Shown: positions 18,796 through 45,227 of the stretch, piece after piece | Position numbering within the stretch: the stretch's first letter is position 1 | Layout of the letters: each line of letters begins with the position of its first letter | Assembly (NCBI GenBank): GCA_051294375.1 | Contig: CM119265.1 | Span: 17,387,172 to 17,451,171 of the forward strand | DNA: 64,000 nucleotides | Source: Paraspadella gotoi | Lineage: Eukaryota; Animalia; Chaetognatha | Direction: 5' to 3' | The notes under the pieces: generated by a model | What the model was told of the DNA's origin: nothing | Database searches by the model: none | What the model saw: the letters and a program-made list of their open reading frames with translations, nothing else | Program-made: the position numbers and the translations under genes

Positions 18796-19519
18796 ATGTC
18801 CGAGTCGACGACTCCCATGTCCTCCCCTTCTCCGGTAACCACAACTTCGACAGCTGCGAGGTCGACTTCGTCACCTAGCGGCAGCTCGACGCTGGCATCG
18901 ACCGCCGAATCAACTTACCAAGAGTTAGTTAATCATCCTTCGATCCCGTTGCCTGTTGCTGACGACGCCACTGAGGCGGAGGGGGAGGAGACCTACTACC
19001 CCTACTACCCCGAACAGAGACGCCACGGTTCTCGATGGTTAGCGAAGGAGCTGAGGTGCTTGCTCTACGGATTCGGAGACGACGAAAATCCCTATACGGG
19101 TAATGGTCTGAGGTCTTTGAAATTCTATAATTTGTTACTATTAGGTTATAATAATAATAATAATAATAATAATTATATAATATAGATACCAATACCAATA
19201 GCCGATATCAAAATGAAATAGATGAACTGCTTGGGGAAATATAACTTTTAAAAAAATAATTTATTTTCTGCTTGTCCTCACTCACTTGACCTTTTTTTGC
19301 GCAGAAACCGTTGACCTTTTGGAGGATTTATTGATCGAGTTCATCACTGAAACGACTCATCGTTGCATGGATATTGGCCGCACAGGTCGAGTTCAGGTTG
19401 AAGACATCATCTTTCTCGTTCGGAAGGATCCTAAGAAGTACTCTCGAGTGAAGGAACTTCTCACCATGAACGAGGAATTGAAAAAAGCGAGAAAAGCTTT
19501 CGACGAACAAAAATATTGA
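18796..19519 (+). CDS. TAF13: TFIID subunit 13 (intron 19100-19304)
   Basis: KELRCLLYGFGDDENPYT|ETVDLLEDLLIEFITETTHR...GRVQVEDIIFLVRKDPKKYSRVKELLTMNEELKKARKAFDE is the conserved TAF13 histone fold. Confidence 0.97.
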
Positions 19520-19538
19520 CCACGTACTGTAAAACGAA

Positions 19539-21512
19539 ATGGAGACGAGCATTATTGAAGAAACCGATAGCATCAACTGCGGCAAATGCTGTCAGACATT
19601 CGTTTCTTTTGACTCTTTTAAAAATCATAAATTAAGTGGATGCAATTTCGGAAGAAAGTCCTTAGATCTGGAACCAAACTTTTCCTCGAACCCATCTAGT
19701 TCCAATTCTATTATTTCGCAAGAAATCGATAAATTTTCCACGGTGACTTCAGAACGGAGAGGCCCGGATCAACGAACTATGATTATTATAGACAATTTAA
19801 ATTATAACTTCACCGATAATTCAACGGAACAATCACAACTGTATTTTCTTAATCCCGTCGATCACACAACCTTGTCATCGTTTTTCGGCGCAACGGCAAT
19901 GGAAATTTTAGTCGACCCTCAGCAAACAAATTCGTCGACAAGCACAGGCGATCACGTACAACAACAGTCACCCCATCTCTCTTCATTTATGGATACTAAC
20001 GGAATTTTAATGTCTGCCGATTCAGAGCCGCGTTCTAACGTTTCGAAAACCGGCAGCAATTTAGAAGGTGACGTCGAACCAGGCTCTGATTTTTCAGAGC
20101 GAATTCAAAATGAGGAGGAAAAAATCAAGCCGGCTAAAAAGCGTAACAAGGTGATGCGGATTCTTCCGGCCAAGGTCCCTCTAAATCTAGCCTCTAAAAA
20201 ATCGTGGACTAGAGAAGGCTCCACGGTGACTCAGACTCAGACCTATCGTGTTTTTAAATTAAGTTGTGTATATTGCGAAAAGCGATTTTGTAAGAAGTTT
20301 GACTTGGACGCACACCTAAGGATTCACACCGGCGAAAAGCCTTTCCGCTGCAGCGTGTGTCGAAAAGGTTTCGCTCAGAAGAGTAACGTGAAAAAGCACC
20401 TTTCTTCCCACAAGGTCTGGCCGAACGGCCGGTCTTCTCTCCCTCATAATCTCTTTGCTGACACGAGCGGTCAATCTTTGGTAGACGTGATCACTTCCTA
20501 TTTTTGCCAGTATTGCGATGAAAGGTTTTCCAAATGGCCCAAGCTGTCGTCGCATTTAGCGATAAAGCACAAAGACGAACAAGTTTTCAAGTGCAGAGTC
20601 GTTCAGTGCAACGATACTTTCAAAAAACTGGAAGATTTTTTAAACCATCTTAAGGAACACGACCCCGACGAATTGAAGTTTCGCTGCGATAAATGCGATT
20701 TAATGCTGGATTCCTTACATGAAATGAAAATACACCGGCGTCAACATAATATTATCCCATCATCTGAAGAATCTTTGAATACAAAATTTTCTTGCGCAAA
20801 ATGTAAACAAAAGTTTTCGTCGGCAAAGTCATTAAAGGAACATGCAGAATCCTCTTCTCATGTTATTCCTTGCAACGGTTGTTCGGATAAGTTTTTCATC
20901 TCAGAAGTATGTCTGAGGAAGCACCTCCGGGAGCAGCACGCAGTCGTCAAGCATACATGCGATTTTTGCGGGAAGAGCTTTAAGTCAAAATCAATCCTGG
21001 CGTCACATTACAAGACTCATGGACCTTCGGTCTACGAATGCGAGGATCAAAGTTGTAAGAAGACATTTAAAAGAAAAGATCAATTGAGTCGGCATAGATT
21101 AACGCATCAACGACGCAGATTTCATTGCCCACACTCTAGCATCTGCTCTCGAAATTTCGCGCGACGGGATCAACTCGCTTACCACCTTAAGACTCATGGC
21201 AGTTTACGCCCTTGGAAGTGTCGGATTTGCGGAAAGGGATTCCTGAGCAAAAGCCACTTAAACGAACACGAATCGACCCATAAAGGTAGCAGAAAATTCA
21301 AGTGTTCCGCCTGCGATCGAAACTTTTTAAGACGCAGTCAGTTGGAAAATCACCTATGTGTCCCCGACGTCGGATCGGTAAATCTTCGACGTGATCGGAA
21401 AGCTCGAATTAAAGCGCCCGAAGAGACGCAGAGCGGAAGGCTAAAAGCGTCGGTGATTTTGCGGAGCGGGAGAAAAACGAGACCCACGAAGAGGATAAGC
21501 GATTTACTATAG
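19539..21512 (+). CDS. ZNF341: C2H2 zinc-finger protein 341-like, intronless CDS
   Basis: N-terminal CGKC..F.....F..HK.SGC and the diagnostic 'FCKKFDLDAHLRIHTGEKPFRC..C.KGFAQKSNVKKH...HKVWP'; about 12 C2H2 fingers. Confidence 0.85.
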   Translation: METSIIEETDSINCGKCCQTFVSFDSFKNHKLSGCNFGRKSLDLEPNFSSNPSSSNSIISQEIDKFSTVTSERRGPDQRTMIIIDNLNYNFTDNSTEQSQLYFLNPVDHTTLSSFFGATAMEILVDPQQTNSSTSTGDHVQQQSPHLSSFMDTNGILMSADSEPRSNVSKTGSNLEGDVEPGSDFSERIQNEEEKIKPAKKRNKVMRILPAKVPLNLASKKSWTREGSTVTQTQTYRVFKLSCVYCEKRFCKKFDLDAHLRIHTGEKPFRCSVCRKGFAQKSNVKKHLSSHKVWPNGRSSLPHNLFADTSGQSLVDVITSYFCQYCDERFSKWPKLSSHLAIKHKDEQVFKCRVVQCNDTFKKLEDFLNHLKEHDPDELKFRCDKCDLMLDSLHEMKIHRRQHNIIPSSEESLNTKFSCAKCKQKFSSAKSLKEHAESSSHVIPCNGCSDKFFISEVCLRKHLREQHAVVKHTCDFCGKSFKSKSILASHYKTHGPSVYECEDQSCKKTFKRKDQLSRHRLTHQRRRFHCPHSSICSRNFARRDQLAYHLKTHGSLRPWKCRICGKGFLSKSHLNEHESTHKGSRKFKCSACDRNFLRRSQLENHLCVPDVGSVNLRRDRKARIKAPEETQSGRLKASVILRSGRKTRPTKRISDLL

Positions 21513-21674
21513 ATTTTGACGACTTTTTCGAGGGTTAGCTTCGTGATTAAGATAAAATTATTAATTCTTCACTCAACAGTGCTGCGGCAGATAGTTAAAT
21601 CATCGACCTAGCCAGTCTTGATTTGTTGTACGATTTTGTAATTTTTTAGGCGGACTGAGACATTTCTGTCAACA

Positions 21675-22563
21675 ATGCTTTATAATTCTTGCTTCCAAAC
21701 TGCAACTCATCTTCAACCGTTCTTATTCAGAACGTTTTCGCGAATTTTTTATTTGGTAGGATTGATGACTTTTATTGTAAATAAAATATTTCATTTCTTT
21801 TCTCTGACTCTTTATGATTATATTTTATTTTTGTATACCTTTCCAGCCGAGTCGACACTTTGGACTTTCCAGCGTCATGTCAACTAAAGTGGCCCTTGTT
21901 CTTTCCGGTTGTGGCGTCTACGACGGAAGCGAGGTCCACGAGGCCTCAGCTTGCCTCGTTCACCTATCGCGCTGTGGCGCTGAAGTCACGATGTTCGCGC
22001 CCGATGCCCCACAGATGCACGTGATCGATCACACCAAGGGGGAGCCAATGGAGGGCCATCAGCGGAACGCCATGGTGGAGGCAGCTCGAATCGCGCGTGG
22101 GAAGATTTCCCCATTGAAAGAACTTAAGGCGGCCAATTTCGACGCAGTCGTTTTTCCTGGTGGTTTTGGAGCCGCGAAAAATTTATCTGATTTCGCTGTG
22201 AAGGGTCCGGAAATGTCACTCGTTCCCGACACGGAGCGTGTTCTAAAGGAATTTCACGGGGACGGGAAACCTATTGGACTTTGTTGCATCGCGCCAATTT
22301 TGGCGGCGAAGGCGTTGCCTGGAATTGAGCTCACAATGGGCGGTGAGGACGAACAGGGTGGAAAATGGCCCTACGCTGGCGCTACAGGAGCGGCCAAGGC
22401 GCTTGGGGCAGTACATGTTGCGAAGGACTCTGCGGACGCAGCTCACGTCGATAACAAAAATAAGGTGGTAACGGCGCCTGCTTACATGTGCGAAACCGCC
22501 GTACACGAAATATTTGATGGAATCGGTAAAATGATTCAAGCTGTGCTCAAATTAGCCAAATGA
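21675..22563 (+). CDS. GATD3: ES1/GATD3 (DJ-1/PfpI family), mitochondrial; intron 21756-21846
   Basis: [38 protein letters not shown] and [10 protein letters not shown] motifs; exon 1 looks like a transit peptide. Confidence 0.95.
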
Positions 22564-22854: not shown

Positions 22855-25800
22855 ATGCCGGGACCCAAGGTCCATCCAAAACTTCGTGGAAAGTTGGAAA
22901 ATTGGAAAGCGAGTGAAATGGAAGAAGATAATTCTGGAGGAAACAACGCGACAGCTACAGGTTTTATAAAGAATACGGAAAAAATTGAATGATGTATGAA
23001 ATCGTAATGATTTCTTTACGTTTACCAGTTGGTTTTTTATCCAAATCTGCGTTTTTTCATGAAGATGTTGAAACTGTACTTGCGCGTTCGAAAAATACTA
23101 AGGCGACGCCACCGACGGAAATCATTCATAGGTAGGGCGAGAAGTTTAACATCACCATTAAATAAATGGATTTATTAGTTTTAATTGCAATGGTAAGCGC
23201 TTTTAATTTAACTGTCATTTGTAATTTGGCCTGGTTTTTATTGTATTTTCTATTTATTTTATTGTCTTGATAAGGGAAACTCAAACTACATTACTTGATA
23301 TATTTTATATTATTATTAATTAGCGGTCATTTCATGGTGAGCGAGATCGAGGAAGAAAGTGGCGAATCTGAGGACAGTTCGCTTCAGGACAAAATGGTCA
23401 TCGCAGTGGAAGAGGAGTGTTCCGTCTCTGTCACTGATTCCGCCGATGGTAGGCAATACATACATTAGTTTTAAAGAAATATTGCGCAGACTAATACAAT
23501 TATAAGAGTAATTCCCTGTCAACGGTCCCGAAATTATAGGTGGTTTTTTCCGCGAAGAAGAGCAAAGCCTTGTCGTCGATAACAGGAAAATTCATCAAAG
23601 TGGAGGATCAAACATGAGCTCCTCTGCCGGGTCATATTCACATCGCAAATCTATCACGATCGATGGGTATGAAGCCCCTTCTTGTTTGAAAAAATATCTA
23701 TTTTTTTACATAACTATATTTCTAATTCCTTGCTCTTCTTTTAGTTCTCTTACAAAATTGTTCAAACACATGTCTTTGGCGTATAGTGGAAAAATTACTT
23801 CGCCTAAATGGAAACAATTCAGCGGACTCAAGATGATGCTGAAGGATAAAATTCGTCTTAACAATGTTATTTGGCGAGCTTGGCACATTCAGGTAATATA
23901 TTAAACGTTTCGGAAAATATTTGTTTGGAATTTGTTTAAATTTCAGCTCCAATTTCTATCTATTCAGTACATAAAAATTCAAAAGCCAATTGTGTCCATG
24001 TTTGCGACGCCTTTGGACTTGGAAGAAGATCATCAAAAGCCGCAGGCCGTTGTTCTGGAGGGAAAATACTGGAAGAGACGCCTGGGTGCCATCGTTGAAG
24101 AATATAAAAAATGGCGTCAATACTTTCGCTCAACGCGAAATTCTAACTTCCTTGATGTTGACGCGGTCATCGCCAGCGCAGAAGAATCCTCCAACCGAAG
24201 CAACGAACATAATCTCTTTGGTGATATATAGATATATACAATTATTTTTTATTTTTACATTTTACTTAGTTTACTGAGAATTTTTCTACAGACGATGAAA
24301 TGATGGAGCTTCTTGATCGCGTTGACTGGGAAGTACGAAAGACGCCCGTATGTCACTCGGCCATTGCAGGAACAGTGGCGTCGCCCAATGCGACGGTTGA
24401 CGGGGATTTTATGCAAATGATGGACTTTACCGGTTTGTTTATGACGTTATTTCAATTCTGAGAAACATTAATAATTATTCAATTGCTCTTTTTTAGACAC
24501 ATTGTTTCAAACTTTACAATACCCGTTCGCGTTCCCGGATCCCAGAGAAATTGCCCAGGCCGCAAGCAACGCCGGTACTGTGTACATGTCGCCCCTTGCA
24601 GCCTGTTTTCAAAAAACTTTAAAATAACAAAATAACCTTCTTTCCCATTCAGACGTGATTCAGCCGGGTTTGGTTCAACTTCAACCAACGCTAGACGACT
24701 TTATTCCCGACTTTTCCGACATGTTAACCCCGGCCGCTGCCGCTGTTCCAATGCCTCAGCCGCCCATGTCCCTTTTCCCGAAGTCCGAAACGTTTCTTAA
24801 CGAGATCCCGATCGAGTCCGCGGCGCCGATGATTTCCCAGTCTATTCCTATGCAGTCGATGGTCAGCCACGAAAACAGTGAATTCCTTCAATCTCAGGAG
24901 ATGACGTTTCCCTGCAACAACGTGATGATAGTGGACGCTGGGGACAAATCGTGCCAAAACTGGGAGACAGGATTGGTCGATCAACAGGGTTCTACGGCAC
25001 CCGTTCCAATAACGTTCGTCAACGCGCCGACCGTCGACAACAACAATTCTTTAACGGTGATTCCGAACGTCACCTTGGATGATGCTGGACGTGGATGCTT
25101 AATTCTACCGAAACCCGATGCGGTCGCAATAGCCCAGGATTCCGGTTCCGCTTCTGTCGGTCAAACTCCTGAGGAAACCGCGGTCACCTTCTTGGTTGAG
25201 GCTCCTTCCTCATGCAAGGAATCTCTCACTACTCAGACAGAACCTCCGTCTTCTTATTGCGGCTCCGAACTTCTGGTCAATCTATTGAAGACGGAATCTC
25301 CTGGGTTCGGTGCCACTCTGACAAAAGTTTCTGAAGCTATTGCAGAACCGAATAACTCGGTCTCCGTCGAATTTTCGATGCCGATTACTCCGAACCAGAC
25401 TGTTCCCGTCAACTCCGTGGTACCAATCCCGCCGGCACCGCCTTTTAACGGAAATTTAAGCAGCGGAATACCGAAACCCTTTCACCGACAATTTCCTTTA
25501 CAGGGATCGTTGGTCGGCACTGTGCCGAATTCTAGGAGCACCACTCCTTCCCCAACCCCGCTTAGCACCTTTACGTCCCACCTGTCGCCTCTAATTGTCG
25601 CCCCGTTGAACACGACTATGTTTCAGACGGTGCAGACGACTCCCCAAGCAAGACCTCTGTCGTCTAACGCCTCTACGCCGTCCCCAGGCCAATCTGACGT
25701 ACACCCCAAGCCAGTCCGCCATTCATCTTCGGATACGCCCACTTCGACGCCGACGATCGCTGATTTGAAGCGTGGTGACGATGGATCTTGGGGAGGACCC

Positions 25801-26496
25801 TCGGCTTCGAAGAGGAGCAAGGTTCAAGACTGCGCCTCGTCGAGTCATAGTTGCGAAGGGGACGCGAAGACTCAGCGGCGTCAAAAAGTTCACGTCAGCT
25901 CAGAGCAGAAGAGGCGCGGCAACATCAATAGTGGATTCGAGATGCTTCAGCGAATGATTCCTTCCATGAATCCCAACCTGAAAGTAAGCAAGGCCCAAAC
26001 GTTGCAAAAGACCACGGAATACCTCACTAAGTTGAAGACGGAACGCGAGCAGCGCAAAGCAGAGCTGCATAGCCTTAAAGCTGAGGCGGAAGCTCACAGC
26101 AGGTGCATTACTGAATGTCAAAACGCGCTGCCCGCCACCGGCGTCTCATTTTCCCACTTGGACGCCAATTCCAAAGAGGAGCAGGGAAAGTTTCTTTGGA
26201 AGTTGTATCACGACTACGTTAGGAGTCGGACCCTTGTAAATTGGAAATTCTGGATTCTCTCCAAGTTGCTCACGCCCCTTTTTGACGCTTATGTAGCGGC
26301 TGTGACGGGACTAAGTTCTGAACGGACGGAGGAGTTGGTGGAAGCTCTTCAGAGGTGGATGGAAAGGCACTGCAGTTTGACTGCGTTGAGGCCGATGATC
26401 ATGAATGCTTTACGAAAACTCAGCACAACTACGGGCATAATCAATCGTCCTGATAGACTACCGCAAGAGGCGGTGGCCGATGTTAAAACGGAATAA
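22855..26496 (+). CDS. MLXIP: Mondo/MLX-interacting bHLH-Zip transcription factor (multi-exon)
   Basis: Mondo conserved regions EIIHS|GHFMVS, SLTKLF..MSLAYSGKITSPKWK, RLNNVIWRAW, LEGKYWKRR, FPDPREIA and IQPGLVQLQP; bHLH HVSSEQKRRGNINSGF; C-terminal NWKFWI. Confidence 0.93.
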
Positions 26497-26780: not shown

Positions 26781-27539
26781 ATGGCGGAGTATTTGGCCTC
26801 GATCTTCGGGACCGAAAAGGACAAAGTCAACTGTCCTTTCTACTTCAAGATTGGCGCTTGTCGCCACGGAACCTCTTGCTCTCGTTTACACAACAAGCCG
26901 ACATTTTCCCAAACCATCGTTCTTCAAAATTGCTATCGCAACCCGCAAAACACGGCGACTTCGGCCGAAGCGGCTTCGCTTCTCTCGGATGTTGAGCTCC
27001 AGCAGCACTACGACGATTTTTTCGAAGATATCTTCCTGGAAATGGAGGACAAATACGGAGAGGTGGAGGAGATGAACGTCTGCGACAACCTTGGCGATCA
27101 CCTCGTTGGAAACGTCTACATCAAGTTCCGTGAGGAAGAGGATGCCACCAAAGCGGTGACGGACCTCAACAATCGCTGGTACAACGGTTCCCCGATCTAT
27201 GCGGAATTGTCGCCGGTGACCGACTTTCGCGAGGCTTGTTGCCGCCAGTACGAGATGGGCGAATGCACCAGAGGAGGATTTTGCAATTTCATGCACCTCA
27301 AGCCCATTTCGCCGAATTTGAAGCGGGAATTGTACGGAGCCAGACGCAGAAGGCGAAGATCCAGGTAATACTGAATAATTTTCTTCACTTTGGTCGTGAC
27401 CCTAGTTAACCATAGTTTCCCCCTTCTCTCTAGAAGTCGGTCTCGGTCGCGGGAGAATCATAAGAGGCGTTCCCGTTCCCGCGAACGAAGAAAGCGCTCG
27501 CGATCTCGTGACCGCGGGGAAAGAGGCGGAAGGTTCTAG
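26781..27539 (+). CDS. U2AF1: U2AF small subunit (intron 27365-27433)
   Basis: MAEYLASIFGTEKDKVNCPFYFKIGACRHG, UHM domain, second CCCH finger, and an RS tail completed by exon 2 (...RGERGGRF*). Confidence 0.98.
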
Positions 27540-27829: not shown

Positions 27830-29716
27830 ATGGCGTCTCCAGGCCAAGCAACCGAGCGGCCATCCACACTAAGAACTTATATTGATCGATTCCGACGTGG
27901 GAGTCCTACGAGTCGAGCCGAGCGAGATACTACGATGCGAGAATTTTGGTGGCTCCAGCTTGACAAAGAAACCGAAAGTGCTATCACAATTGCAGAGAAA
28001 CCTCTTCACATGATCGCCGAGGGACATCACAGTAGCCCTCGGTCATCTGAGATGCTTGGGGAAGAAGCACGAATCACTTCTAAAAATTCGAACCCTATGG
28101 AGGAAACCTCCCTGCTTATTGTTGCCCCTTCCCCCGGAAGTGAAATAGTTCCCCCTGAAAGAACCACATTGCAGCAGCTTGATGATATTTTATCTCGAAA
28201 AAAAATGTATCAAACATCCCATGAAAAAAGTTCTTCGATCGGCCATATTCCTGCACCTAAAACCAGGATAGCGCCCTCCTCCGATTCGCCCGTGGGGGTC
28301 ATCTCAAGCCGAGGTTTGGGGAGTCAACCAGACGATGATGATTCTCTTGAAAATCGCGTCTCCGTCAGTCGAGATTCCCCGCCTGTGTTGCCGCAGTTCG
28401 CTAAATTGCTAAATCCCGTTGCAGAAGGTTACGGTGGCATGCAGAGAAAATTGACCTCGCTTCATCATCGAGAAAAGCGTCGGCTTGTTTCTCCAAAAAA
28501 CCCTGAAGACGATATTCTTTATCAGTGGCGTTTAAAGAGAAAATTACAGGACGCAAGGCAAGACGTGGGAAAGAGATCGGACATTTTGAAAAGAATGGAA
28601 AACCAGTTGTCTCATTTACCGCGAAAATCAACCATTACGTGCTCCGACCCTTCGAGAAACCGAATAAATGGCAGAAACGGCGATAGGGTCGAATCAAATT
28701 CTCCTCACATCAATCAATGCGAAACTTTAGTTTCGTCGAAATCGCAAGCTGACGCAGCCACTAGTCCTACCTTTCCTCCTTACAAATGTGATACTTTTTC
28801 CCCATTACTTACTTCCCCCAATCAACCGAATTTATTGCCGTTTCTGCCCAACCCTTGGTTCGGGGCGGCCTATGGCCCTTATTTTGAGCCGCTTCGTTAC
28901 GAATCTGCTTGCAATTGCTGTCGTCTCAATCGTCAACACCCCCGGTTAACACAAGACCAGGGGACTTGTTCAACTCGAAAAAGTATGGAGGTACTTAACT
29001 CGGAAAAACAACCGTCAAAATTGTCTGCTTCCATTAGAGGCAGCAAAGTGACGACCTGTTCTATCCCTGGCGACAGACCTTCAAAGACGTGCGCGGTAGC
29101 GCAATCTAAAGACGACAAAGATCAAAAATCTTTTTCCTGGAAACGTCGAGACGTTATTCGTCCTTCGACTTTGTCTCCGGTCTCAAAAGACGCGCCAAAA
29201 CATCGCCGCTGCCAAAAGTCATTTCCAACTGACGACACAGCGAGCGAACCTGTCGAGTTTCGAAAGGAGAGTTGCCGTCCACCCGTTCCGTTTGATGTGG
29301 AGGAAACTCAAGCCCAGTTAATTGTTGATTCAAGCAACTACAACGACGGGGACCTCACTGTCGTATCATCGTTGTCTTCCTCCCATGACGATTTGCCTTC
29401 GCTCGACGCGCTTTCGACCTGCGGGGATGAAATGGAAGCGGAGCGTCCGAATCGTGACTTAGACAATGACCGAGAGACGATTCCAAAAACTTTGGGTCCA
29501 GCGTCTGGTTTGGCCTCGCCTGCCCATCCGCGAGACGCTCAAAGAGCGTTGGATCAAGAATCCCGGATTCCCCGACGCATCGAGGAGTTCGAGTCTGACG
29601 AGTCCGAATTCGAGGACGATGAAATTCTCCTGGTCCTTCGTAAGCGGAGAAAGCGACTGATTGCGACGATGTGGGCTTTAGCAAAGGCGATGAAAGATTT
29701 GGATCTTATTACATGA
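27830..29716 (+). CDS. PROSER3: PROSER3 (C19orf55)-like protein, intronless CDS
   Basis: Three short conserved islands: YIDRFR..PTSR.ER...FWWL, EDDILYQWRLKRKLQDAR and FEDDEILLVLR. Confidence 0.75.
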   Translation: MASPGQATERPSTLRTYIDRFRRGSPTSRAERDTTMREFWWLQLDKETESAITIAEKPLHMIAEGHHSSPRSSEMLGEEARITSKNSNPMEETSLLIVAPSPGSEIVPPERTTLQQLDDILSRKKMYQTSHEKSSSIGHIPAPKTRIAPSSDSPVGVISSRGLGSQPDDDDSLENRVSVSRDSPPVLPQFAKLLNPVAEGYGGMQRKLTSLHHREKRRLVSPKNPEDDILYQWRLKRKLQDARQDVGKRSDILKRMENQLSHLPRKSTITCSDPSRNRINGRNGDRVESNSPHINQCETLVSSKSQADAATSPTFPPYKCDTFSPLLTSPNQPNLLPFLPNPWFGAAYGPYFEPLRYESACNCCRLNRQHPRLTQDQGTCSTRKSMEVLNSEKQPSKLSASIRGSKVTTCSIPGDRPSKTCAVAQSKDDKDQKSFSWKRRDVIRPSTLSPVSKDAPKHRRCQKSFPTDDTASEPVEFRKESCRPPVPFDVEETQAQLIVDSSNYNDGDLTVVSSLSSSHDDLPSLDALSTCGDEMEAERPNRDLDNDRETIPKTLGPASGLASPAHPRDAQRALDQESRIPRRIEEFESDESEFEDDEILLVLRKRRKRLIATMWALAKAMKDLDLIT

Positions 29717-33816: not shown

Positions 33817-36137
33817 ATGTCCGCTTCAATGCAAAAGACACTGAGCGCCATGTTGGCGGCGGGAGGTCAAAACCACAAAGAACTTATAGAGAAGTTGCGT
33901 AGCGTCTTGGATCAAATATTGCAGCTTACGGAAGAAGAGAGGATAAAATGTAACCGCGTAGGTTGTTTCTCGATTTACTTGGTTTTAACGAATTGTCGTT
34001 TCAAAAGGTTTGAAGGCCTTCGTGGAATCGATGGTAAACGAAAATGTGAGCTTGGTTGTTTCGAGGCAGTTGTTCACCGACTTCGGAGCGCGGCTTCAAA
34101 CTCTTGAAGACAACGTAGCTGGTGAGAAAAACTTTTTTCAAATACCCAAATAATTTGATGAAACAACGTTGATTTTGTGAATTTCAGAAACTGTGGCTCT
34201 TTTTACTTTGGAAAAGATTCAGCCCCGCGTGATTTCGTTCGAGGAGCAAGTCTCTTCTTTGAGACAACACCTTGCTCAAATGTACGAGCGGCAAGAGTTA
34301 TGGAAGAAGGTGTGTTCGTTGTCTCTTTCTCCTTATGCTTTCCATCTCTAACTCGTCTTATTCATCGAATGTAGGCCGCGGCTGTTTTGGTCGGTATTCC
34401 ATTGGAAACTGGCCAAAAGCAATATTCGATCGATTACAAGCTCGAGACTTACTTAAAGATCGCCCGCCTCTTTCTCGAGGATGATGATCCTGTTCAGGCG
34501 GAAGCATATATAAATCGCGCGTCGTTGTTGCAAGGTGATCTTAAATAGGGCTCATTGAAAATTTTTCAATTATTTTACTAACTTATTAACTCCTTCATTT
34601 GCAAAATGCTGCTGTATCAATCATTAATCATCATTCAATTTATTGTAATCAACTTGTAAAATTAACTTATTTGGTATGAGGAATAATTCGGTAATTATTA
34701 TTTCCTTTTTTGGCGCGCGCGCGGGTAGCGGAGTCAAAAAACGAGGAGCTTCAGATTCAGTACAAAGTCTGCTATGCTCGAGTACTCGACTACCGGCGAA
34801 AGTTTATCGAGGCGGCTCAGCGCTACAACGAGCTCTCCTACCGCACCATCATTCACGAGTCAGAGCGCAAAACTGCATTGCAGAACGCCCTTCACTGCAC
34901 TATACTAGCTTCCGCCGGACAGCAGCGTTCCAGGGTCCTTGCGCTATTATTTAAGGTTGTCTATAAGCTAATAGCTGTTTTTTTTTTTTTGTTTTTTTTT
35001 TGAGGCTACCTATACCAAGTTTTACTTAACATTTTCGTCTTTTAGTTTTTTCAGTGGTGGAATAGATAAAATCAAATTATAGTCAAACTTTGGTTTTTAT
35101 AACTACTAGTTATCCTAATCTCCATTTCATTATTTTTTTTCTCGAATTTTACGGCTTATTTTTTTATCCACCATAGTACTTTATTTTCATATTAGGTTTC
35201 TGAATTGGTTGTTCTCCATCGCTTTATGAGACTGTCATTTTGTAATAAAAGATGGGAATACGTTTTAGAGCTGTGATGAGAAACATACTACACAGTAAAA
35301 AAATCGTTGTCGCCTATGTAGTACGTACGTAAGAACGTATCCAACAAAACTTTTAAAATAATTATTATATAATAATTATTATTAGGATGAGAGATGCCAA
35401 CAGTTACCAGCTTATGGAATATTGGAAAAGATGTACATGGACCGGATAATTCGTCGACGGGAGTTAGAGGAATTCGCTGCTCTGCTGCTTCCTCACCAGA
35501 TGGCGAAGACTGCGGACGGCTCGACGATCCTCGATAGAGCAGTCACCGAGCACAACCTTCTGTCCGCTTCCAAACTCTACAATAACATTTCTTTTGAAGA
35601 ATTGGGAAGGTAAATTGTCTCAGAAAAGAAAAACATATAAAATTGTGAAAATTTTATTTTCATTTTATAGACTTTTGGAAATACCCCCGACCAAAGCGGA
35701 AAAAATCGCTTCGCAAATGATCACCGAGGAACGAATGGGGGGACATATCGACCAACTAGAAAGCGTAGTTCACTTTGAAACGAAAGAGTCCCTTCCCACC
35801 TGGGACCGGCAGATTGAGGGACTTTGTTTTCAGGTATGGTCGGCTTAATTTGAAGTCAGTATAGTTAGGTCGAGTCAAAGCCTAAAATAAATACGTTACA
35901 ATACCAAACCAATACATGATAACTAAACTAACTAGTAAGACGTGGGTAAGAAGGTAAAAACTAAACAAAATATTTATTAAAATTTAAAATCTTTAGTTTT
36001 TTTACTCGGAGTCTTTTGTTTCGTGCGCAGCGCTGAAGTGAAACATCTTTTTCCAGGTTAATTCCATTATAGAGAAAATAACCGCCAAAGAGCCGGAGTG
36101 GATACAAAAGACCATGGCCGAACAAATGTCGATATGA
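33817..36137 (+). CDS. COPS4: COP9 signalosome subunit 4 (8 exons)
   Basis: [75 protein letters not shown] and WDRQI. Confidence 0.97.
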
Positions 36138-36522: not shown

Positions 36523-37371
36523 ATGATGGCTCCACAGAACGACCGGGCTTTTCCGGTCGGCCTCCGTCCCCGCGAATCGGACGGAGCTCACCGCGACGCT
36601 CCTCCCGACCAACCCGTCCGACCTCTCGTCCTTCCCCGCGAAATTTCCTCCAAGCTCCGCCAATTCGGGATCGACCTCGTTCGTCATATCGTCGTCGCCT
36701 CGATAGTCGACCTTCCGCCCGATGATCCGAACGAACCGGACGGTCAGCGGCATCTCCCACCCCCTTTTCCCCCCTCCAATGGTTGCGGGTTGTCGATCAT
36801 CAACCTGCTGACGACGGATCGCGCCACGCTGACCATGCGACGCCTCGTGACTAAGGCCTTACTCGATAAGGCACCCACGTTGGCCGCTACGGTCCGTTCC
36901 CTACAACGAATTCCCGAAGACGTCGTTGAGTTCAGAAACGTTTTTGACGCGGTCGTCGAACAGATGGTCAATCCTGCAGAACCAGTGGTCCCGGATGACG
37001 AACCCGGAGACCGGGAGCCCACGGCGCCGACGCCGGCCCGGGGTTCATGGGGGAAGCTGGTGACCGCTTTCGCTTTCGGCGTCCGACTCATCAAGGGGTT
37101 CGTTGATCAGAGACATCACGAGGGGCGAGCCATCGAACTGGACGTCGACGAATGGGGTGCGGCCATGGGGGACGTCCTCGCCGAGAGGATGGGTCCCTGG
37201 ATCTGGGCTCAGGGAGGGTGGAACGTCGGCTTCAACGACTTCTTTGTCGACGCCCGCGGACTCGAAGAAACGATCACGAAGAACCTTTTTCTTGTCTTTG
37301 TCCTGGGAATAGGAGTCGTCGTCGCTTATAAATCACGGGCATTCGGTTTGGGCTATTTCTTTTCTAAATAG
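36523..37371 (+). CDS. Bcl-2 family protein (Mcl-1-like architecture), intronless CDS
   Basis: BH1-like SWGKLVTAFAFG, BH2 WIWAQGGW..F..FF, C-terminal hydrophobic anchor and a Pro/acidic N-terminal extension. Confidence 0.85.
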   Translation: MMAPQNDRAFPVGLRPRESDGAHRDAPPDQPVRPLVLPREISSKLRQFGIDLVRHIVVASIVDLPPDDPNEPDGQRHLPPPFPPSNGCGLSIINLLTTDRATLTMRRLVTKALLDKAPTLAATVRSLQRIPEDVVEFRNVFDAVVEQMVNPAEPVVPDDEPGDREPTAPTPARGSWGKLVTAFAFGVRLIKGFVDQRHHEGRAIELDVDEWGAAMGDVLAERMGPWIWAQGGWNVGFNDFFVDARGLEETITKNLFLVFVLGIGVVVAYKSRAFGLGYFFSK

Positions 37372-37745: not shown

Positions 37746-38723
37746 ATGTCTTTGTCCTTGGCATCGGAACTGTCTTCTACCTGCGCAACCATCTCGTACG
37801 GAGTTTCCCCCGAATCGGATCAGGCGGTCGCTACCAAGTCTTCGATTGCTAAACAACGTTGGAAAATTCTGTGCAACGCTGTTACCAGGACGGGCCAAGA
37901 AAACTATATTGACCGGGAAATATCAGTTCGTCGTTTTTCCTCTTTCCATCTTTTTCAAGTCCTTCGAATTCCTAGCCCACATGTTTCGAAGACTCCGGAA
38001 AATAACGAACGGTCGGAGGCGTGGTTCGAATATCTCGCGGAAGATCTCGATGTCTCCGTCAAAGTTTGCCTTCGGTCTGACGAAGTTAGAGTGCGAGAAC
38101 TCCTCGATTTCGACAACACGGGAAACGTTTGCCTGTGGCCTTCCGAAGAAGTTCTTGCCTTCTACTTGGTCCGACGGCCGGAACTCTGCCGAGGAAAGAC
38201 GGTCGGCGAATTAGGCGGGGGCATGACATGTTTGGCCGGTCTTTTCGCCGCTCATCTCGGGGCTCGCCGGGTTGTTCTCAGCGACGGTAACGTCAAAGCG
38301 GTCGCCAATGTTCGTAAAATCATCGAAGCTAATAATACAAGCGAAGACAGAGAATTTTTATTAAAAAATGTCAATGCTCGCGTTCTACGCTGGGACGCTG
38401 TCTCAGAGATGACATCGGATCTCAGGGGCGGTCTTGACCTCATCATCTCCGCCGATTGTCTCTTTTTCGACGATTTTCGCCAGTCATTGGTTGATACCAT
38501 CGATTTTTTGTTGGCCCCGGGAGGAAAATCTCTCATTTTCGCACCGCGACGAAAACGCACCATGGAAGATTTTTGTGCACTGGCAGAAGCTCGAGGGTTT
38601 CTTGTTAAGATTTCAGAACATTACGACCACGTCATCGGGGTCAAACTGCAAGCGGCTCTCCGTTCAAAGTGTTTCGACAAAGACATTCACTATCCATTGA
38701 TGGTTGAGTTAACGAGACATTAG
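37746..38723 (+). CDS. CAMKMT: Calmodulin-lysine N-methyltransferase, intronless CDS
   Basis: AKQRWKIL, SVRRFSSFHLF, FDNTGNVCLWPSEEVLA, ELGGGMTCLAG, DGN, ADCLFF and FDKDIHYP. Confidence 0.95.
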   Translation: MSLSLASELSSTCATISYGVSPESDQAVATKSSIAKQRWKILCNAVTRTGQENYIDREISVRRFSSFHLFQVLRIPSPHVSKTPENNERSEAWFEYLAEDLDVSVKVCLRSDEVRVRELLDFDNTGNVCLWPSEEVLAFYLVRRPELCRGKTVGELGGGMTCLAGLFAAHLGARRVVLSDGNVKAVANVRKIIEANNTSEDREFLLKNVNARVLRWDAVSEMTSDLRGGLDLIISADCLFFDDFRQSLVDTIDFLLAPGGKSLIFAPRRKRTMEDFCALAEARGFLVKISEHYDHVIGVKLQAALRSKCFDKDIHYPLMVELTRH

Positions 38724-39386
38724 CTTTAAATAAGTAGTCTGGTGAGCATGAAAACGGAACGCTCCATTATGAAGTGTTTTTTTTTTTAATATGAAAATGC
38801 AAGTGAACCAACTTATTACCTAGTCTGTAACTACTTAAGAAAGTACAAACAGAAATGTAGATAAACCTTCAGTTTCGGCTAAAAAAATTTTTCTGAGCCG
38901 TTCCGAAATCATACCCATGTCACAGTATTTTTTTCACTTGTCTGGCATAAAATTCTATGGATATTTAGTTATTTACCAAAGATAATATTTATTTATATTC
39001 AGTAATGCAGTACGGAGTCACATTAGCAAAGGTAACTATTTAATCATCCTCAGGAATTTTTTATTGATTGCCAATCATTTTTTTAACTGCATATTGTATT
39101 GCAAAGAGGAGAATAATTGAGATTACCAGTAAATTGCACATTGTGATCCCTTTTTAAATTTTGAAATTAGGTATTTATATTATTTATTTTGATTTGGTCC
39201 TTTCATTATAGGTTTTTGTGCCCGTAAAAGGAGTGTCAAGGTGCCACCCCTGAATAATTATCAAATTTTATTAGAAAAGATTTTTAATAGAAACTCATTA
39301 CCATAACCCGCCTAACTCGGAATTGTCAACCTTTTTAAAATATATTCGTTCTTCAACATTTGTCTTCTATCACCGTTGCTCTTACC

Positions 39387-40957
39387 ATGCCTCTCTCTGT
39401 GGATCCGTTTAGCCATCAGTCTTGGGACTATTCCAACTATTCTAACTCACATTCACCCATCTTCGGACTGGGTGCTCCACCTTCTCTTTTAAAGGTATAT
39501 CAGGACTAGATCAGGACTAATCTGAGCCACGTTGATTTTCAAGTTCATTTTCTCAATGTTTTCGTCTTCAGAGTCTTGATAATTTGAACGACTCCTTTTC
39601 GTCCTCCGTGGTTGAAAAGGGAGAAAAGACGAACCCTTCGAGGTACAAAACCGAACTGTGCCGACCGTTTGAAGAAAACGGAACTTGTAAATACGGAGAC
39701 AAATGTCAATTCGCACACGGTAACGATTTTCCGGCATGATTTTCCGACGAGTAATCTTTTTAACGTTTATTGATTTTCATCTCTATAAGTTAGTGTGTTG
39801 CTTGTCACCTTTTCATTATTTTAGGTCGCTCAGAACTTCGGAGTCTCAATCGTCATCCGAAGTACAAGACGGAATTGTGCCGCACTTTTCACACGACAGG
39901 AATATGTCCCTATGGACCTCGTTGTCACTTTTTGCATGCGGAGGCGTTTGAAATAGAAGAGGCGTCTTCTAATCATGCCTCGTCCAAGTCAGCCAGACTT
40001 CCTGGGGAAACTTTTCCGCGTCTGGCGAGGCCATCCAATCTTAATCTGAGTCTTTCCTTTAACGAGCCCGAAATGAAACACAACCAGTTCGGCAGCAGTC
40101 CAGTTAATAGGACGTTTTCCACTGGAATGGGGGCTTCCCCGTCTCCACTAAGCCCCGCCTCACTTTCTTCCGTCTCTACTCTCTCGTCCATGTCTTCCTC
40201 CTCCTATTACATCGATGGGTCTGAAACCGAGACCCATGCCACAGTCGATGCCCCAACGGCCGCTTTCGTGGCCTCTGCCGCGACTTACACGTCGTCCCCG
40301 ACGCCATTCGAATTTCTTTCGGAAGGGAACTCGACTACGCCTTACGGTTTATCATCCTCTCGTGCGGACCGATTTAAAGAGCCGCTAATAAAGCCCGTCT
40401 CTCTCCTCGAGGGGCGTCGCGCGAACCACAAACCTGCTTCAGGCTTACCTTTAGCGCGTTTTCCATTCGCAGATGTCGAAAGTTCTCACGCCAATATTGA
40501 TCAACTCAGCAAGATGATCGTTAATGAATTATTGGATCGTCTTGGAAAGATGACCAGGGTTCAGCCCGACGACGTATCGCCGCTTCAGCAACAACAGGCG
40601 TTGATCGGTCATATTCAAGCGTTGCTTGCTGGTGGTCCTATTTCGGGTGGATTTGGACCGGAAGGCCGCCGCGATTCCGGTCAGATCACATCAAAGCTCG
40701 TTGCCTCGGTCGGGCAGTATGGGGAGGCGCATGACCAAACCAAAGTCACCTCTCTGGTTCACGCTGACCACAAGTACGGGCCAATAGGCGGCAAGAAGCG
40801 TATCGCGACATTGCCTTATCTCCGTAGCGGCGAATTATCGGTGGCCGTATCATCAGCATCCCCGTTACTCTCACCAAATCAGGGCATTATTTTGGAGTCT
40901 GATGAATCCCAAGCTACCCAGCTGCGTCTTCCTATTTTCTCGCAGCTAACCAAATGA
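39387..40957 (+). CDS. ZFP36: Tandem CCCH zinc-finger mRNA decay factor Tis11/ZFP36 (3 exons)
   Basis: [27 protein letters not shown]|...[28 protein letters not shown] and the C-terminal NOT1-binding motif RLPIFSQL. Start codon inferred. Confidence 0.93.
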
Positions 40958-41289: not shown

Positions 41290-41625
41290 TCATTTGATGT
41301 TTTGCATGTTTTATTTATTTTATCGAAACATAGTTGACAATTTACAGTAGTAAAGCGTCTTATTTGTTATTGATCAAGAGTATTAGGTACAAAAATAAAC
41401 ATAGATGTTCTCTTGGTAAAATTATTGCTTAATTTAAGTAATTTTTTGTATTATTTATGTATTTAAGACGATTCAAATCTTACGTTTAAATAAATTATTT
41501 TTATCTAGACCATTCCGCCGCATATCAATAATACGAAAATATTTTTGTCTTCAATGAATTGTGTAGAATATTGTAGGTGAGTTTATTTATAACGAAATAA
41601 AAGTTGCGTATTTATTTAATTTCAC
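41290..41625 (+). promoter_or_regulatory. AU-rich elements in the putative ZFP36 3'UTR
   Basis: Several TTATTTAT/TATTTATTTA motifs (~41310, ~41452, ~41583, ~41610) and an AATAAA at ~41597. The AT-rich background weakens the call. Confidence 0.4.
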
Positions 41626-42847
41626 TAGAAATGATGGTATAAAGCGGAGTGTGAGTGTGTATAATGCAATTCATTCTTATAAAATTTCTCCAATGCGTTT
41701 ATTAAAAAACCGTCTTTAATTTGGAATGAATAGCATTTTTATTTTGACCCTATTTAGCTAATAGCATTGTTGAGACCTTTAATTACCAGATTCGGTATAA
41801 GGTTACTAATGATATAATTTATTCTTCAGGTTTAGAAGAACAACTTCTATTCCTAGTGCTTTCATAATTTTATAAAACTAAGCCGACACTGTGTTATAGA
41901 GTGTGGATCAACCCTCTTTGTAACCTTTGCACCACGTTGAATTTTTTTATTTGATCGGAATTGGAATACCTTTTTGCCTTTTTGTACTTTTTTAACTGAT
42001 GCAGCCGCTGATTAAACGCAGTCAAGATGTGACCTTTTTGTTATTTTTTTTTCCTATTAATCCTACTGCTACAATAATATAATGTGATACGAACACCTGT
42101 TATCGCATTGAAGCTATACGTAATTGAGATTATTAATAATTTAATCCTACCATGTCAGAAGGAATGTTACCTCAAGACAAATGTGCCTAATTTTGTATTC
42201 CTATTTTTAGTTGATGCTCGCCTCATTAATATTTAAATATGGGGGTGAAAGGTGTGGGTGCAACGTCAATGACCCGCAATGAAATAAGAAAACTAATCAA
42301 ACAAAAGATGAAAGATGAATGTGAACACATTTACGAAAATGATGGAATTATGAGGTAAAAAAGAATTTCGTTGCTGGGCTCGAACGTTGGATAAAATTGG
42401 GCATTAGACAAAACACGGGGAAAACTCGTCAAAACTGGACAAATTAGCTAGGATTAAAATTTGTTGTTAATTCAATGTTTTAGAAACTTATTTATGTATT
42501 AATGAAAAGCATCAAAATATTACCTTAAGAAAAAAATTAAATAAAAAATTTAAAATAAATGAAGACTTTCCCCATATACCTTCAGCAATGCATTCCAAAG
42601 TTTTTAAAAAAAATTTATCCAACAAAGTTAGCGTAATTAGACAATGTTTTTGCGCTAGTTTTTAACGAAGTTTTATATTAAAAGCGTTTAATGCTAGCAA
42701 AAAATCTGCAGCCATTTTATAGGGTTATTTTGTGATTAGTTTTATAGCGCGTTTATAAAAGCTATTTTCGAGAATTGAGCATATTAAACTTTGATTTTTC
42801 ATTTTAGGTTCCGTATACCTTATTCAGCCAAGGCAACTTCTTATCCA

Positions 42848-43442
42848 ATGAAAACCTTTCACCCTGAGATGGAGATGGAAGGGTTTAACCACAAATATCA
42901 CGGAAACATCGTAGTTCCCGACTACAGGATTTACGACGTCAAGAAAGTGGCCATTTACAGCTCAGATTTGCGTAAATACATGGCCAAGTTGGACAAAGAG
43001 GAACTCCATGATCCCTGGCTACGTAATCATATTTGGGAGTAAGTTTTTTTTGTTTTTCTTAATTAACTGACAAATGTTTTAATTGTTTTTATTTTTGTGT
43101 GGCAGTCAAGATCCTTACAGTGGCTACGAAACTACTGGATGGGGCTACTTCTTCGTCTTGACCCGCGGAATGGGCCTTGGTCTAGCCTTAGCGGTACTGC
43201 ATATTTGCCTAAAGCACTTTTACGAAGGTTATTATCCGCCTCACGAGTACTGCACGGACAAGTGGTGGGAAGCGCGCGAAACTCCAAAGCCGAACAATAT
43301 TTATAACCGATTTCAACCAGAAGGCGTTATCATGGGGCTGCCGTTTTCGAAAAACCCCGAGTTGAAACGTTATATCGGGGAAGATGTTGGCGTTGATCTC
43401 CCGCCTCCTAAGGATTACTCCTTTAGAGAGAAGAAATGTTGA
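42848..43442 (+). CDS. NDUFB3: Complex I subunit NDUFB3 (B12)-like with C-terminal extension (intron ~43039-43105)
   Basis: VPDYRIY...KL..EELHDPWLRNHIW followed by a TM segment (RGMGLGLALAVL). Start uncertain. Confidence 0.7.
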
Positions 43443-43689
43443 GAAGAACTTCGCCCTGCCCATTTATGTTTTCGAACCCTAGTCGTTTCAGGCATTTTCT
43501 CAATTTCGTGACGGAGACTTGTTAAATTTTGACTTGTCTAAAAAGGAAACGTGTCAAAATGTTTTTCACGTTTTTTTTAAATGTGAAAAAGCTCGAAAAA
43601 TATATATACTAAATTAAATACAGGACTTTTAAAATGATTTCTTCTGTTTATACAGATTGAATTGTAATTTGATCAGCGAAAGTTAAATT

Positions 43690-44090
43690 ATGGGTGCCGT
43701 AGCTTCCCTAGGAAAGTACCCAAAGGAGTACAACCCAAAGGTTCACGGGCCTTTTGTTCCATGGAGAAATTACGGGCCGATCGACACGCCGTTTAGCCAA
43801 GTAAGACCGACCGCGTCCCGGACCAGTTGTGATGACAGTCTGACGAACACCTTTTTTTTATGTAGGTACGCATCATCGACCTTCCAGGCTGGTTGGCTCG
43901 CCGCGATCAGTCCCTTTCGGGCATTTTACGCGGTTGCTCTCGCATGGCACACAGATGGCACTACAAATACACAATGCCGGTTAACGGAAGCTTTGCTTAC
44001 GTTTGGCACATCATTATCCCTCTATCCCTCATAACGCTCTACGCTAGCTATGAGCGATACGAGGCTGTTCGGCAGAAGAAATACCACTAA
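43690..44090 (+). CDS. ATP5MF: ATP synthase subunit f (intron 43801-43865)
   Basis: GKYPKEYNPKVHGPF.PWR.YG..DTPFSQ|V....LPGWLARRD.S...RWHYKY...KYH*, the invertebrate-type subunit f pattern. Confidence 0.93.
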
Positions 44091-44280
44091 GAGGAAACTT
44101 TTTAATGAGGGAGGGGAAAACTGGATGACACGACTGTTGATGATCAGGTTGTTAGTATTTGTCGACTCGAGTGTATGATTTGGGCTACTCGAGCAGAAAT
44201 AAAAAAACGTTTTTTTTTTTAATGTCCGCGAATTACCCTTTTTCTTTGGTTTAATTTGAACGCAGATTTAAAAATTCTTC

Positions 44281-45227
44281 ATGCCTCTCGACTGGAAGGA
44301 GGAACCTTTTAACTTTTCTTGGGCTATTCCTGGTCTCTTGGCCGGTTGTGGCTTTCCAAGCGAGCGGCATCTCCGTTGGCTTCAGGAAGAAGGCGTCGAC
44401 CATCTGGTCACACTCAACGCCGAACGCGCTCCTCCGGTCGCGGCTTTTCGTGAGCATGAGTCAAACGAGTCGTGTTTGGAATGGACGCGCATCTCCATCG
44501 TTGACTTCTCTCCTCCGACCGTCGATCAAATAGAGACAGTTATGGATATAATCGAAAAATCCCGTTTGACGAATAAAAAAGTTTGCATTCATTGCACCAT
44601 GGGACGGGGCAGAACGGGCAGCATGATTGCTTGTTGGCTTATCAAGAGTCAGGGAATGGACGGTCAAACAGCAATTAGGTACGAACGGTTGTAAATAAAA
44701 TAAAAAATAACATCATCATGGTTTAGTTACGGATTAGCTTAGCCAGAACTATCGTCTACTTATGGTCGTTTTATGCTCTTGTATTATCATTCGGACATAA
44801 TTTCGAAAAAGAACAAGAATGGTAATTCAAATGTGTTGCGCCGCAGTAACTTTATTTTAACGTGTATTTCCCTTTGATCATATGACATGATTAAAAACCT
44901 TTTTTTGCCCGTATATTTATGACATGCATTGCATCAAAATTCCGTCTTTTATTCCTTATAGTTTTAATAATTCCTTAACAAATAAGCAACCAACTCTAAA
45001 CAAATTATATTTATTTTTAATATAAGTGGGACAGACTTACCGACAGACCGACCGAAAAATGACTTATAGAGTTGCTCCCCAGTACTCGCTGCGCTACTAA
45101 TAAGCGATAATTTACTAACTTTTTTGCTTTCCTGCTTCACAGAGAAACGCGGAAATTACGGCCTGGTTCTATTGAGACTAAAGGACAAGAGGAAGCAATT
45201 ATAAACTATGCTCTGTCAATTCGATGA
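44281..45227 (+). CDS. DUSP23: Dual-specificity phosphatase 23 (exon 2 45143-45227)
   Basis: PFNFSW...LAG, DFSPPT, catalytic HCTMGRGRTG; exon 2 encodes RKLRPGSIETKGQEEAI. Confidence 0.93.
45022..45102 (-). mobile_element. Short HINE-like repeat (second copy ~46062-46148)
   Basis: ataagtggg..cagact...accgaccga...gctcc..agtactcgc.gcg.actaataa occurs twice. Confidence 0.55.

What the first reader, a model, noticed from the sequence alone, without database searches (positions are those of the whole stretch)
18796..45227. Fifteen-gene same-strand cluster that looks like a very long animal operon
Seen: 15 consecutive + strand housekeeping genes. Stop-to-start gaps are 19, 162, 291, 284, 290, 150, 827, 330, 385, 374, 663, 1890, 247 and 190 nt, with almost no transposons, although the flanks are repeat-rich. 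Most gaps must hold a 3'UTR and a 5'UTR, leaving little room for promoters. Known: nematodes, tunicates, flatworms and chaetognaths have SL-resolved operons, typically with a few genes each. Inference: one or a few polycistronic units, possibly breaking at the 827- and 1890-nt gaps. This is unusually long, and new if operons are undescribed in this lineage.
Basis: partly seen in the sequence, partly recalled or inferred. Interest (0 to 1): 0.85.

Follow-up and report, generated by a model that had tools for sequence, protein, structure and literature searches.

The report
Fifteen-gene arrow-worm operon candidate
Fifteen intact, unrelated genes lie head to tail over 26 kb in what is likely an arrow-worm genome, and spliced RNA assemblies run through nine of the fourteen gaps, so they likely form one or a few long operons cut apart by spliced-leader trans-splicing, a mechanism known in arrow worms, where the longest operon reported has nine genes.

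Summary
Observation confirmed: 15 intact + strand genes at 18796-45227, with 13 of 14 gaps as stated. The 1890-nt gap holds a spliced upstream exon of the next gene. Self-repeats cover 0.4% of the cluster against 25-42% of the flanks. A near-identical RNA run (X1) has empty introns, yet its spliced contigs bridge 9 of 14 gaps, including the 827-nt one. Two contigs start exactly after an AG acceptor, and two gaps are crossed by GT-AG splices. U2AF1 contigs from two relatives carry the published chaetognath SL2 leader, so the animal is very likely an arrow worm. Arrow-worm operons are already described (PMC2481426, PMC12460157), so the mechanism is not new. The length may be: validated or distance-called maxima I read are 7-9 genes (14 only by a loose 3.5-kb rule). 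Not shown: a leader on this organism's own mRNAs, single molecules across gaps, or the number of promoters. One oddity: ZNF341 starts 19 nt after the TAF13 stop with no AG between. The scan earlier noted a 9-gene operon and a 14-gene cluster elsewhere in this genome (unchecked).

The parts
18656..18795 (+). Transcribed leader region before TAF13 (likely outron or 5' UTR); AG at 18794-18795 directly before the ATG
   Evidence: X1 contig of 7696 nt starts at 18656; the acceptor score is weak, 3.5
18796..19519 (+). Gene 1, TAF13 (2 exons, 172 aa)
   Evidence: PF02269; joint
19539..21512 (+). Gene 2, ZNF341-like (657 aa, one exon); ATG 19 nt after the TAF13 stop, no AG in between
   Evidence: N-terminal zinc motif conserved from residue 7; gap sequence
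21675..22563 (+). Gene 3, DJ-1/PfpI family (GATD3/ES1, name recalled), 265 aa; candidate acceptor 21649
22855..26496 (+). Gene 4, ChREBP/MLXIP-like bHLH factor (9 exons, 974 aa); candidate acceptor 22758
26781..27539 (+). Gene 5, U2AF1 (229 aa); candidate acceptor 26731; orthologue contigs carry chaetognath SL2
27830..29716 (+). Gene 6, PROSER3-like (628 aa, one exon); candidate acceptors 27762 and 27803
   Evidence: RNA contig 27987-29560
29867..31279 (+). Gene 7, VDAC (6 exons, 283 aa); RNA contig starts at 29816, directly after AG
32107..33486 (+). Gene 8, EMC2 (302 aa); candidate acceptor 31862, 38 nt after AATAAA 31824
33817..36137 (+).
36523..37371 (+). Gene 10, Bcl-2 family (282 aa, one exon); no strong acceptor within 110 nt of the ATG
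37746..38723 (+). Gene 11, Methyltransf_16 family (CAMKMT, name recalled), 325 aa; candidate acceptor 37707
39032..39211 (+). Non-coding GT-AG intron inside the gene 11 to gene 12 gap
39387..40957 (+). Gene 12, tandem CCCH protein (ZFP36/TIS11, name recalled), 462 aa; RNA continues to 42187
42239..43442 (+). Gene 13, NDUFB3-like; upstream exon to 42354 spliced to 42808; start ATG 42239 or 42848; candidate acceptor 42210
43690..44090 (+). Gene 14, ATP synthase subunit f (111 aa); RNA contig starts at 43656, directly after AG
44148..44265 (+). Non-coding GT-AG intron joining sequence 57 nt after the gene 14 stop to the acceptor 15 nt before the gene 15 ATG; it contains AATAAA at 44198
   Evidence: joint 44144-44263
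44281..45227 (+). Gene 15, dual-specificity phosphatase (DUSP23, name recalled), 160 aa; RNA continues past 46200

Best explanation
The 15 intact co-oriented genes are likely an arrow-worm operon block: RNA polymerase II likely starts near 18656 (perhaps also at a few internal promoters) and reads through the gaps, and each downstream mRNA is predicted to be freed by 3' cleavage of its upstream neighbour and addition of a capped spliced leader at an unpaired AG acceptor. Shown: gene structure, spliced RNA continuity across 9 of 14 gaps, contig starts directly after AG at VDAC and ATP synthase f, two GT-AG splices inside gaps, and the chaetognath leader on U2AF1 contigs of relatives. Inferred: the taxon, leader addition in this organism, and the number of promoters. 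I split the odds about evenly between one 15-gene unit and two to four adjacent operons.
For: X1 holds 0.74 of the sampled words. Its contigs span genes 1-5 (7696 nt), 7-10 (5519 nt), 11-12 (3939 nt) and 14-15 (2023 nt), and my exon sums reproduce the aligned lengths exactly. In 14 of 20 bins checked the long contigs explain the depth to within about 1, so introns are empty and this is not genomic DNA. A loose end before the U2AF1 start in run X2 and the first 16 nt of L001 equal the last 16 nt of chaetognath SL2.0; 1 of 80 loci has the motif and the window lacks it. The window's U2AF1 is 95% identical to the L001 protein, and at most 84% to any listed protein named to an organism. U2AF1 and VDAC are in the list of trans-spliced Spadella genes. 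Best acceptor scores within 110 nt of the ATG average 7.4 against 5.1 in shuffles (0 of 300 shuffle sets reach it) and 5.3 just after stops; 14 genes were used, and ZNF341 (0.7) was left out of the mean. Where a canonical poly(A) hexamer precedes the candidate acceptor, the distance is 29-67 nt in gaps 3, 7, 8, 13 and 14.
Against: Contigs are not molecules: overlapping UTRs of separately promoted genes could be stitched. No leader appears among the X1 loose ends shown (6 rows in each; 133 and 51 rows were not shown). In L001 the leader precedes a VDAC-like first exon before U2AF1, so it may belong to VDAC or to a chimeric contig. Individually only 5 of 15 acceptors are reached by 15 or fewer of 300 shuffles; ZNF341, Bcl-2, DUSP23 and TAF13 score weakly. 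Several gaps lack a canonical poly(A) hexamer, and in gaps 4, 5 and 9 it lies after the best acceptor. Internal promoters inside operons are known in nematodes.
Confidence: 0.85

Rival explanations
1. Sub-case of the best explanation: the block is two to four adjacent or hybrid operons with internal promoters, most plausibly before PROSER3-like or VDAC, the methyltransferase, NDUFB3-like or ATP synthase f, and not one 15-gene unit.
For: Contigs end at gaps 5, 6, 10, 12 and 13. Hybrid operons with internal promoters are described in nematodes. The maxima I read for other animals are 7-9 genes.
Against: Two of these contig starts fall exactly after an AG, as expected where a leader joins rather than at a promoter. 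The unbridged gaps are short (150-374 nt; about 23 nt from RNA end to candidate acceptor at gap 12). There is almost no self-repeat in 26 kb.
Confidence: 0.42
2. The genes are separately promoted, compact neighbours whose UTRs overlap or that show incidental read-through; the leader, where used, only replaces an outron.
For: About half of arrow-worm genes are trans-spliced but only 18% are called operonic. Contigs cannot distinguish overlap from polycistrons. No leader was seen on this organism's own RNA in the rows shown.
Against: It needs 14 promoters inside upstream coding or 3' UTR sequence, all on one strand (p = 6e-5 by chance). The TAF13-ZNF341 gap is 19 nt. The splice across gap 14 starts 57 nt after the upstream stop.
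Confidence: 0.1
3. Some neighbours stay on stable dicistronic mRNAs that are translated by reinitiation, notably TAF13-ZNF341 and possibly genes 14-15 and 11-12, where a cis-splice crosses the gap. This is compatible with the best explanation for the other junctions.
For: The 19-nt gap has no AG and no poly(A) hexamer, and the ZNF341 N-terminus is conserved. A relative's TAF13 contig in X2 runs 1643 nt beyond the TAF13 match (content not seen). GT-AG splices lie inside gaps 11 and 14.
Against: ZNF341 could be trans-spliced at an AG inside TAF13 exon 2 (19426, score 4.2) or at the intron acceptor 19304 (7.3), leaving a short upstream ORF. The gap-11 intron may simply be a 5' UTR intron after acceptor 39002.
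Confidence: 0.4
4. The cluster or its RNA support is an artefact of assembly or of DNA in the library.
For: All RNA support for the organism comes from one run and one study, and that run is only guessed to be RNA.
Against: The contigs skip GT-AG introns and introns have zero residual depth. X1 differs from the window at scattered single bases, so it is not a copy of the assembly.
Confidence: 0.03

Closest known systems
Chaetognath SL-resolved operons: Spadella cephaloptera RPS14-PCNA (PMC2481426) and Paraspadella gotoi genome-wide operons (PMC12460157)
   Same: Co-oriented, broadly expressed genes with short gaps. The SL2 leader is found on U2AF1 orthologues, and U2AF1 and VDAC are trans-spliced in S. 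cephaloptera. The S. cephaloptera BAC 35A21 also has a long run of + strand genes.
   Different: 15 genes against a reported maximum of nine in P. gotoi (250-bp rule). It includes regulatory genes (ZNF341, ChREBP-like, Bcl-2, ZFP36-type), and one junction has no acceptor. The species of the window was not determined.
Nematode SL2 and hybrid operons (Caenorhabditis; PMC9258526, PMC7652881, PMC8629364 passages)
   Same: Unrelated genes with short intercistronic spacing; internal promoters are possible.
   Different: 2-8 genes in C. elegans and 2-7 in C. briggsae. Nematodes have an operon-specific leader, which chaetognaths are reported to lack.
Tunicate and flatworm operons (Ciona, Oikopleura, Macrostomum, Schistosoma; PMC7986045, PMC11067885, PMC8629364, PMC12582326 passages)
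   Same: No operon-specific leader; very short or zero intercistronic distances occur.
   Different: The sizes I read are up to 7 (Ciona) and 9 (an Oikopleura example; maxima in Macrostomum and S. japonicum).
Drosophila dicistronic mRNAs such as Adh-Adhr and stoned (PMC2776167 passages)
   Same: A possible model for the TAF13-ZNF341 junction, where no acceptor lies in the gap.
   Different: Drosophila lacks leader trans-splicing; here the junction sits inside a likely trans-spliced block.

Membership tests
SL-resolved animal operon (chaetognath type) | Consecutive same-strand genes with short spacing | tested here: met
   15 genes, gaps 19-827 nt plus one of 1281 or 1890 nt
SL-resolved animal operon (chaetognath type) | Transcription continuous across intercistronic gaps | tested here: met
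   Spliced contigs bridge 9 of 14 gaps with empty introns; contig level only, five gaps not shown bridged
SL-resolved animal operon (chaetognath type) | Spliced leader on downstream mRNAs of this organism | tested here: inconclusive
   Leader on U2AF1 contigs of two relatives; none in the X1 rows shown; two X1 contigs start exactly after AG
SL-resolved animal operon (chaetognath type) | Unpaired 3' splice acceptor before each downstream start codon | tested here: inconclusive
   Met as a set (mean 7.4 vs 5.1; 0 of 300 shuffle sets; ZNF341 left out), absent from the ZNF341 gap, weak for Bcl-2 and DUSP23
SL-resolved animal operon (chaetognath type) | Single upstream promoter for all genes | not testable with these tools
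   No CAGE, ATAC, raw or long reads were offered; only contigs
P. gotoi operon rule (PMC12460157) | Gene models under 250 bp apart and at least one gene with an annotated leader | tested here: inconclusive
   5 of 14 stop-to-start gaps are under 250 nt; UTR-inclusive gaps would be shorter but the ends are not mapped; the paper's Supplementary Table 1 could not be read
Chaetognatha (taxon of the window) | Closest proteins come from transcripts bearing the phylum's leader, which is reported as unlike other phyla's | tested here: met
   U2AF1 95% to L001, which starts with SL2; no named chaetognath protein was available for a tree

The most novel reading that the evidence does not exclude
All 15 genes form one 27-kb polycistronic unit from a promoter near 18656, the longest animal operon I could find described. 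It would mix three junction types in one transcript: ordinary leader acceptors, a zero-gap junction where the U2AF1 RNA ends at the next gene's acceptor, and an acceptor-less TAF13-ZNF341 junction resolved by reinitiation or by trans-splicing inside the TAF13 coding exon.
Probability: 0.4. Interest if true: 0.65.

Novelty: new member of a known kind. Interest (0 to 1): 0.45.

Why it matters
If one unit, it would raise the reported size of animal operons from about nine to fifteen genes. It would also suggest that fixed distance rules and fused gene models undercount arrow-worm operons. It is a compact test locus for how polymerase II passes many poly(A) signals without terminating in an animal that has no operon-specific leader, and for how regulated genes such as ChREBP-like, Bcl-2 and ZFP36-type factors get distinct levels from a shared transcript. 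The mechanism itself is known, so the gain is in scale and junction anatomy.

Tried and rejected
No whole genome is held for this window, so no SL RNA genes, promoter motifs or operon-size distribution could be examined. Rfam found nothing in the window. No listed run is on record as RNA; X1 is treated as RNA because it is spliced. X1 has no cover at 27807-27986 and almost none at 29561-29815; both stretches include PROSER3-like coding sequence, so these holes say nothing about gaps 5 and 6. Gaps 10, 12 and 13 have residual depth from contigs not listed, so bridging is undecided. Contig depths (165-1146) were not used to rank genes. I first read the 21756-21846 skip as an intergenic splice and rejected that: it is a coding intron of gene 3. 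The cluster look-up gave no organism names. The COP9 gene on the Spadella BAC is subunit 2, not this locus. The sigma-70 promoter scan is irrelevant to an animal. A Pfam scan at E<=1 added nothing decisive. Literature searches for a longer animal operon were made; the only larger or similar figure seen is 14 genes in Pristionchus under a 3500-nt distance rule. The library lacks most subscription papers, so 'longest' is not established.
Full report
Observation. I rebuilt the genes by coordinate. There are 15 open reading frames on the + strand between 18796 and 45227, each with ATG, stop and no internal stop, and 32 of 32 introns are GT-AG. The exception is the 1890-nt gap, which contains an exon (ending 42354) that RNA splices onto the NDUFB3-like gene, so the start may be 42239 and the gap 1281 nt. 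Pfam supports 13 of 15 genes. Gene 2 is ZNF341-like, gene 4 matches ChREBP, gene 6 is PROSER3-like and gene 13 is NDUFB3-like (weak). The names GATD3, COPS4, CAMKMT, ZFP36 and DUSP23 are recalled refinements of family-level hits. Coding sequence fills 62% of the block. Self-repeats cover 0.4% of it against 42% and 25% of the flanks.

RNA evidence. One run, X1, holds 0.74 of the sampled words of 21500-31400; X2 and X3 come from the same study and are other organisms. All three are assembled contigs. X1 contigs skip GT-AG introns: 27 of 32 modelled introns are listed joints. Four long contigs each cover several genes: 18656-27364 (genes 1-5), 29816-37459 (genes 7-10), 37888-42187 (genes 11-12) and 43656 to beyond 46200 (genes 14-15). 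My exon sums give exactly their aligned lengths, after the listed small indels in the second. In 14 of 20 depth bins checked these contigs explain the depth to within about 1, leaving introns empty, so the continuity is not genomic DNA. The other six bins hold contigs that were not listed. Gaps 5, 6, 10, 12 and 13 are not shown bridged. A contig does not prove a single molecule.

Three details fit trans-splicing. First, the contigs that begin at VDAC (29816) and ATP synthase f (43656) start on the first base after an AG, which is where an assembly graph would break if a foreign leader joined (inference). Second, a GT-AG splice (44148-44265) joins sequence 57 nt after the gene 14 stop to the acceptor 15 nt before the gene 15 start and removes an AATAAA. 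Third, the U2AF1 3' contig stops matching at the AG at 27803, 26 nt before the PROSER3-like start, with 7 unmatched letters that were not displayed. A poly(A) tail at the acceptor is one reading; it is untested.

Taxon and leader. The best U2AF1 hits are unnamed-organism proteins from public assemblies at 94-95%, and hits named to an organism reach at most 84%. In X2 the loose end before the U2AF1 start contains 16 nt identical to the 3' end of chaetognath SL2.0 (table in PMC2481426 section 12). Locus L001, 95% identical in U2AF1, begins with the same 16 nt. It is the only one of 80 loci that does, and the window lacks the motif. In L001 a VDAC-like first exon lies between the leader and U2AF1, so that leader may belong to VDAC or to a chimera; either gene is in this cluster. 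The Spadella list of trans-spliced genes includes U2AF1 and VDAC. I infer an arrow worm; the species is not determined. No leader was seen among the X1 loose ends displayed (12 rows shown; 133 and 51 rows not shown).

Sequence signals. An acceptor matrix from the 32 introns gives a mean best score of 7.4 in the 110 nt before 14 start codons, against 5.1 in dinucleotide shuffles (0 of 300 shuffle sets reach it) and 5.3 in windows just after stops. ZNF341, at 0.7, was left out of that mean. Gene by gene the test is weaker: 5 of 15 are reached by 15 or fewer of 300 shuffles. In gaps 3, 7, 8, 13 and 14 a canonical poly(A) hexamer lies 29-67 nt before the candidate acceptor. In gaps 4, 5 and 9 it lies after the best acceptor, and gaps 1, 2, 6, 10 and 11 have none. 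Gaps share the T-over-A skew of introns (0.135 and 0.128), unlike the flanks (0.01-0.02).

The TAF13-ZNF341 junction is the odd one. The gap is 19 nt with no AG, and the ZNF341 N-terminal zinc motif is conserved in a close relative and in Patella, so ATG 19539 is probably the real start. ZNF341 must therefore be made from a dicistronic mRNA, from a leader added inside the TAF13 gene (acceptors 19304 or 19426, leaving a short upstream ORF), or from a promoter inside TAF13.

Mechanism. Most likely the block is transcribed as polycistronic pre-mRNA and resolved by cleavage plus leader addition (0.85). Within that, one 15-gene unit (about 0.4) and two to four adjacent or hybrid operons (about 0.4) are not separable with contigs. 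Separate promoters throughout are unlikely (0.1).

Comparison. Chaetognath operons were reported in PMC2481426 (passages, section 12, supplement 2 part 1 and supplement searches read). They were surveyed in PMC12460157 (abstract, passages, section 15 and a search of three PDF supplements): 18% of genes are operonic, the longest operon has nine genes, the rule was under 250 bp, and there is no operon-specific leader. Its spreadsheet could not be read and may list these genes. Passages only were read for other animals: Ciona up to 7 (PMC7986045), a nine-gene Oikopleura operon (PMC11067885), Macrostomum 9 and C. elegans 2-8 (PMC8629364), S. japonicum 9 (PMC12582326), C. briggsae 7 (PMC9258526), Pristionchus 14 by a 3500-nt rule (PMC4138322), hybrid operons (PMC7652881) and Drosophila dicistrons (PMC2776167). 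Searches showed no description of this locus or of a validated animal operon of 15 genes, within a library that lacks most subscription papers.

Verdict. This is a real, unusually long member of a known kind. The scan's earlier notes on this genome (a nine-gene operon, a 14-gene cluster, unchecked) suggest that long blocks recur here. Interest 0.45; it would be 0.65 if a single promoter is shown.

Noticed in passing
L001:1-170: A transcript contig of a relative reads leader, a VDAC-like first exon with its splice donor, a 16-nt stub ending in AG, then U2AF1. This is either a chimera or a VDAC remnant directly upstream of U2AF1, which would show linkage of the two genes in another order.
   Followed up: partly
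window 567-8129 (+): Another same-strand group: a 984-codon open frame with no Pfam family, Elongin B and an acyltransferase; possibly a second operon, with larger gaps.
   Followed up: partly
window 58292-64000 (+): A DFP-family gene (58292-59227; PPCS-like, name recalled), a weak BTB-like frame at about 59408, and an open frame running off the window end; possibly a third same-strand group.
   Followed up: partly
window 27803: The U2AF1 3' RNA contig stops matching exactly at an AG 26 nt before the next start codon, with 7 unmatched letters not shown; a possible zero-gap poly(A)/acceptor junction.
   Followed up: partly
window 27433-27436: Tandem acceptor (AG at 27432-33 and 27435-36) in the U2AF1 intron, which may explain why the long contig ends at 27364.
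   Followed up: no
window about 53900-55500 (-): Short minus-strand frames that read like leucine-rich-repeat exons (by eye), amid repeats.
   Followed up: no
window about 16000-17400 and 51250-52650: A long near-identical dispersed repeat has one copy on each side of the cluster (seen).
   Followed up: no
window 44800-45110: A repeat element in the DUSP23 intron attracts many partial X1 contigs; it is the one clear dispersed repeat seen inside the cluster.
   Followed up: partly
window 42239-43442: The NDUFB3-like frame (175 or 227 aa) is about twice the length of the solved NDUFB3 chains (79-114 aa).
   Followed up: no
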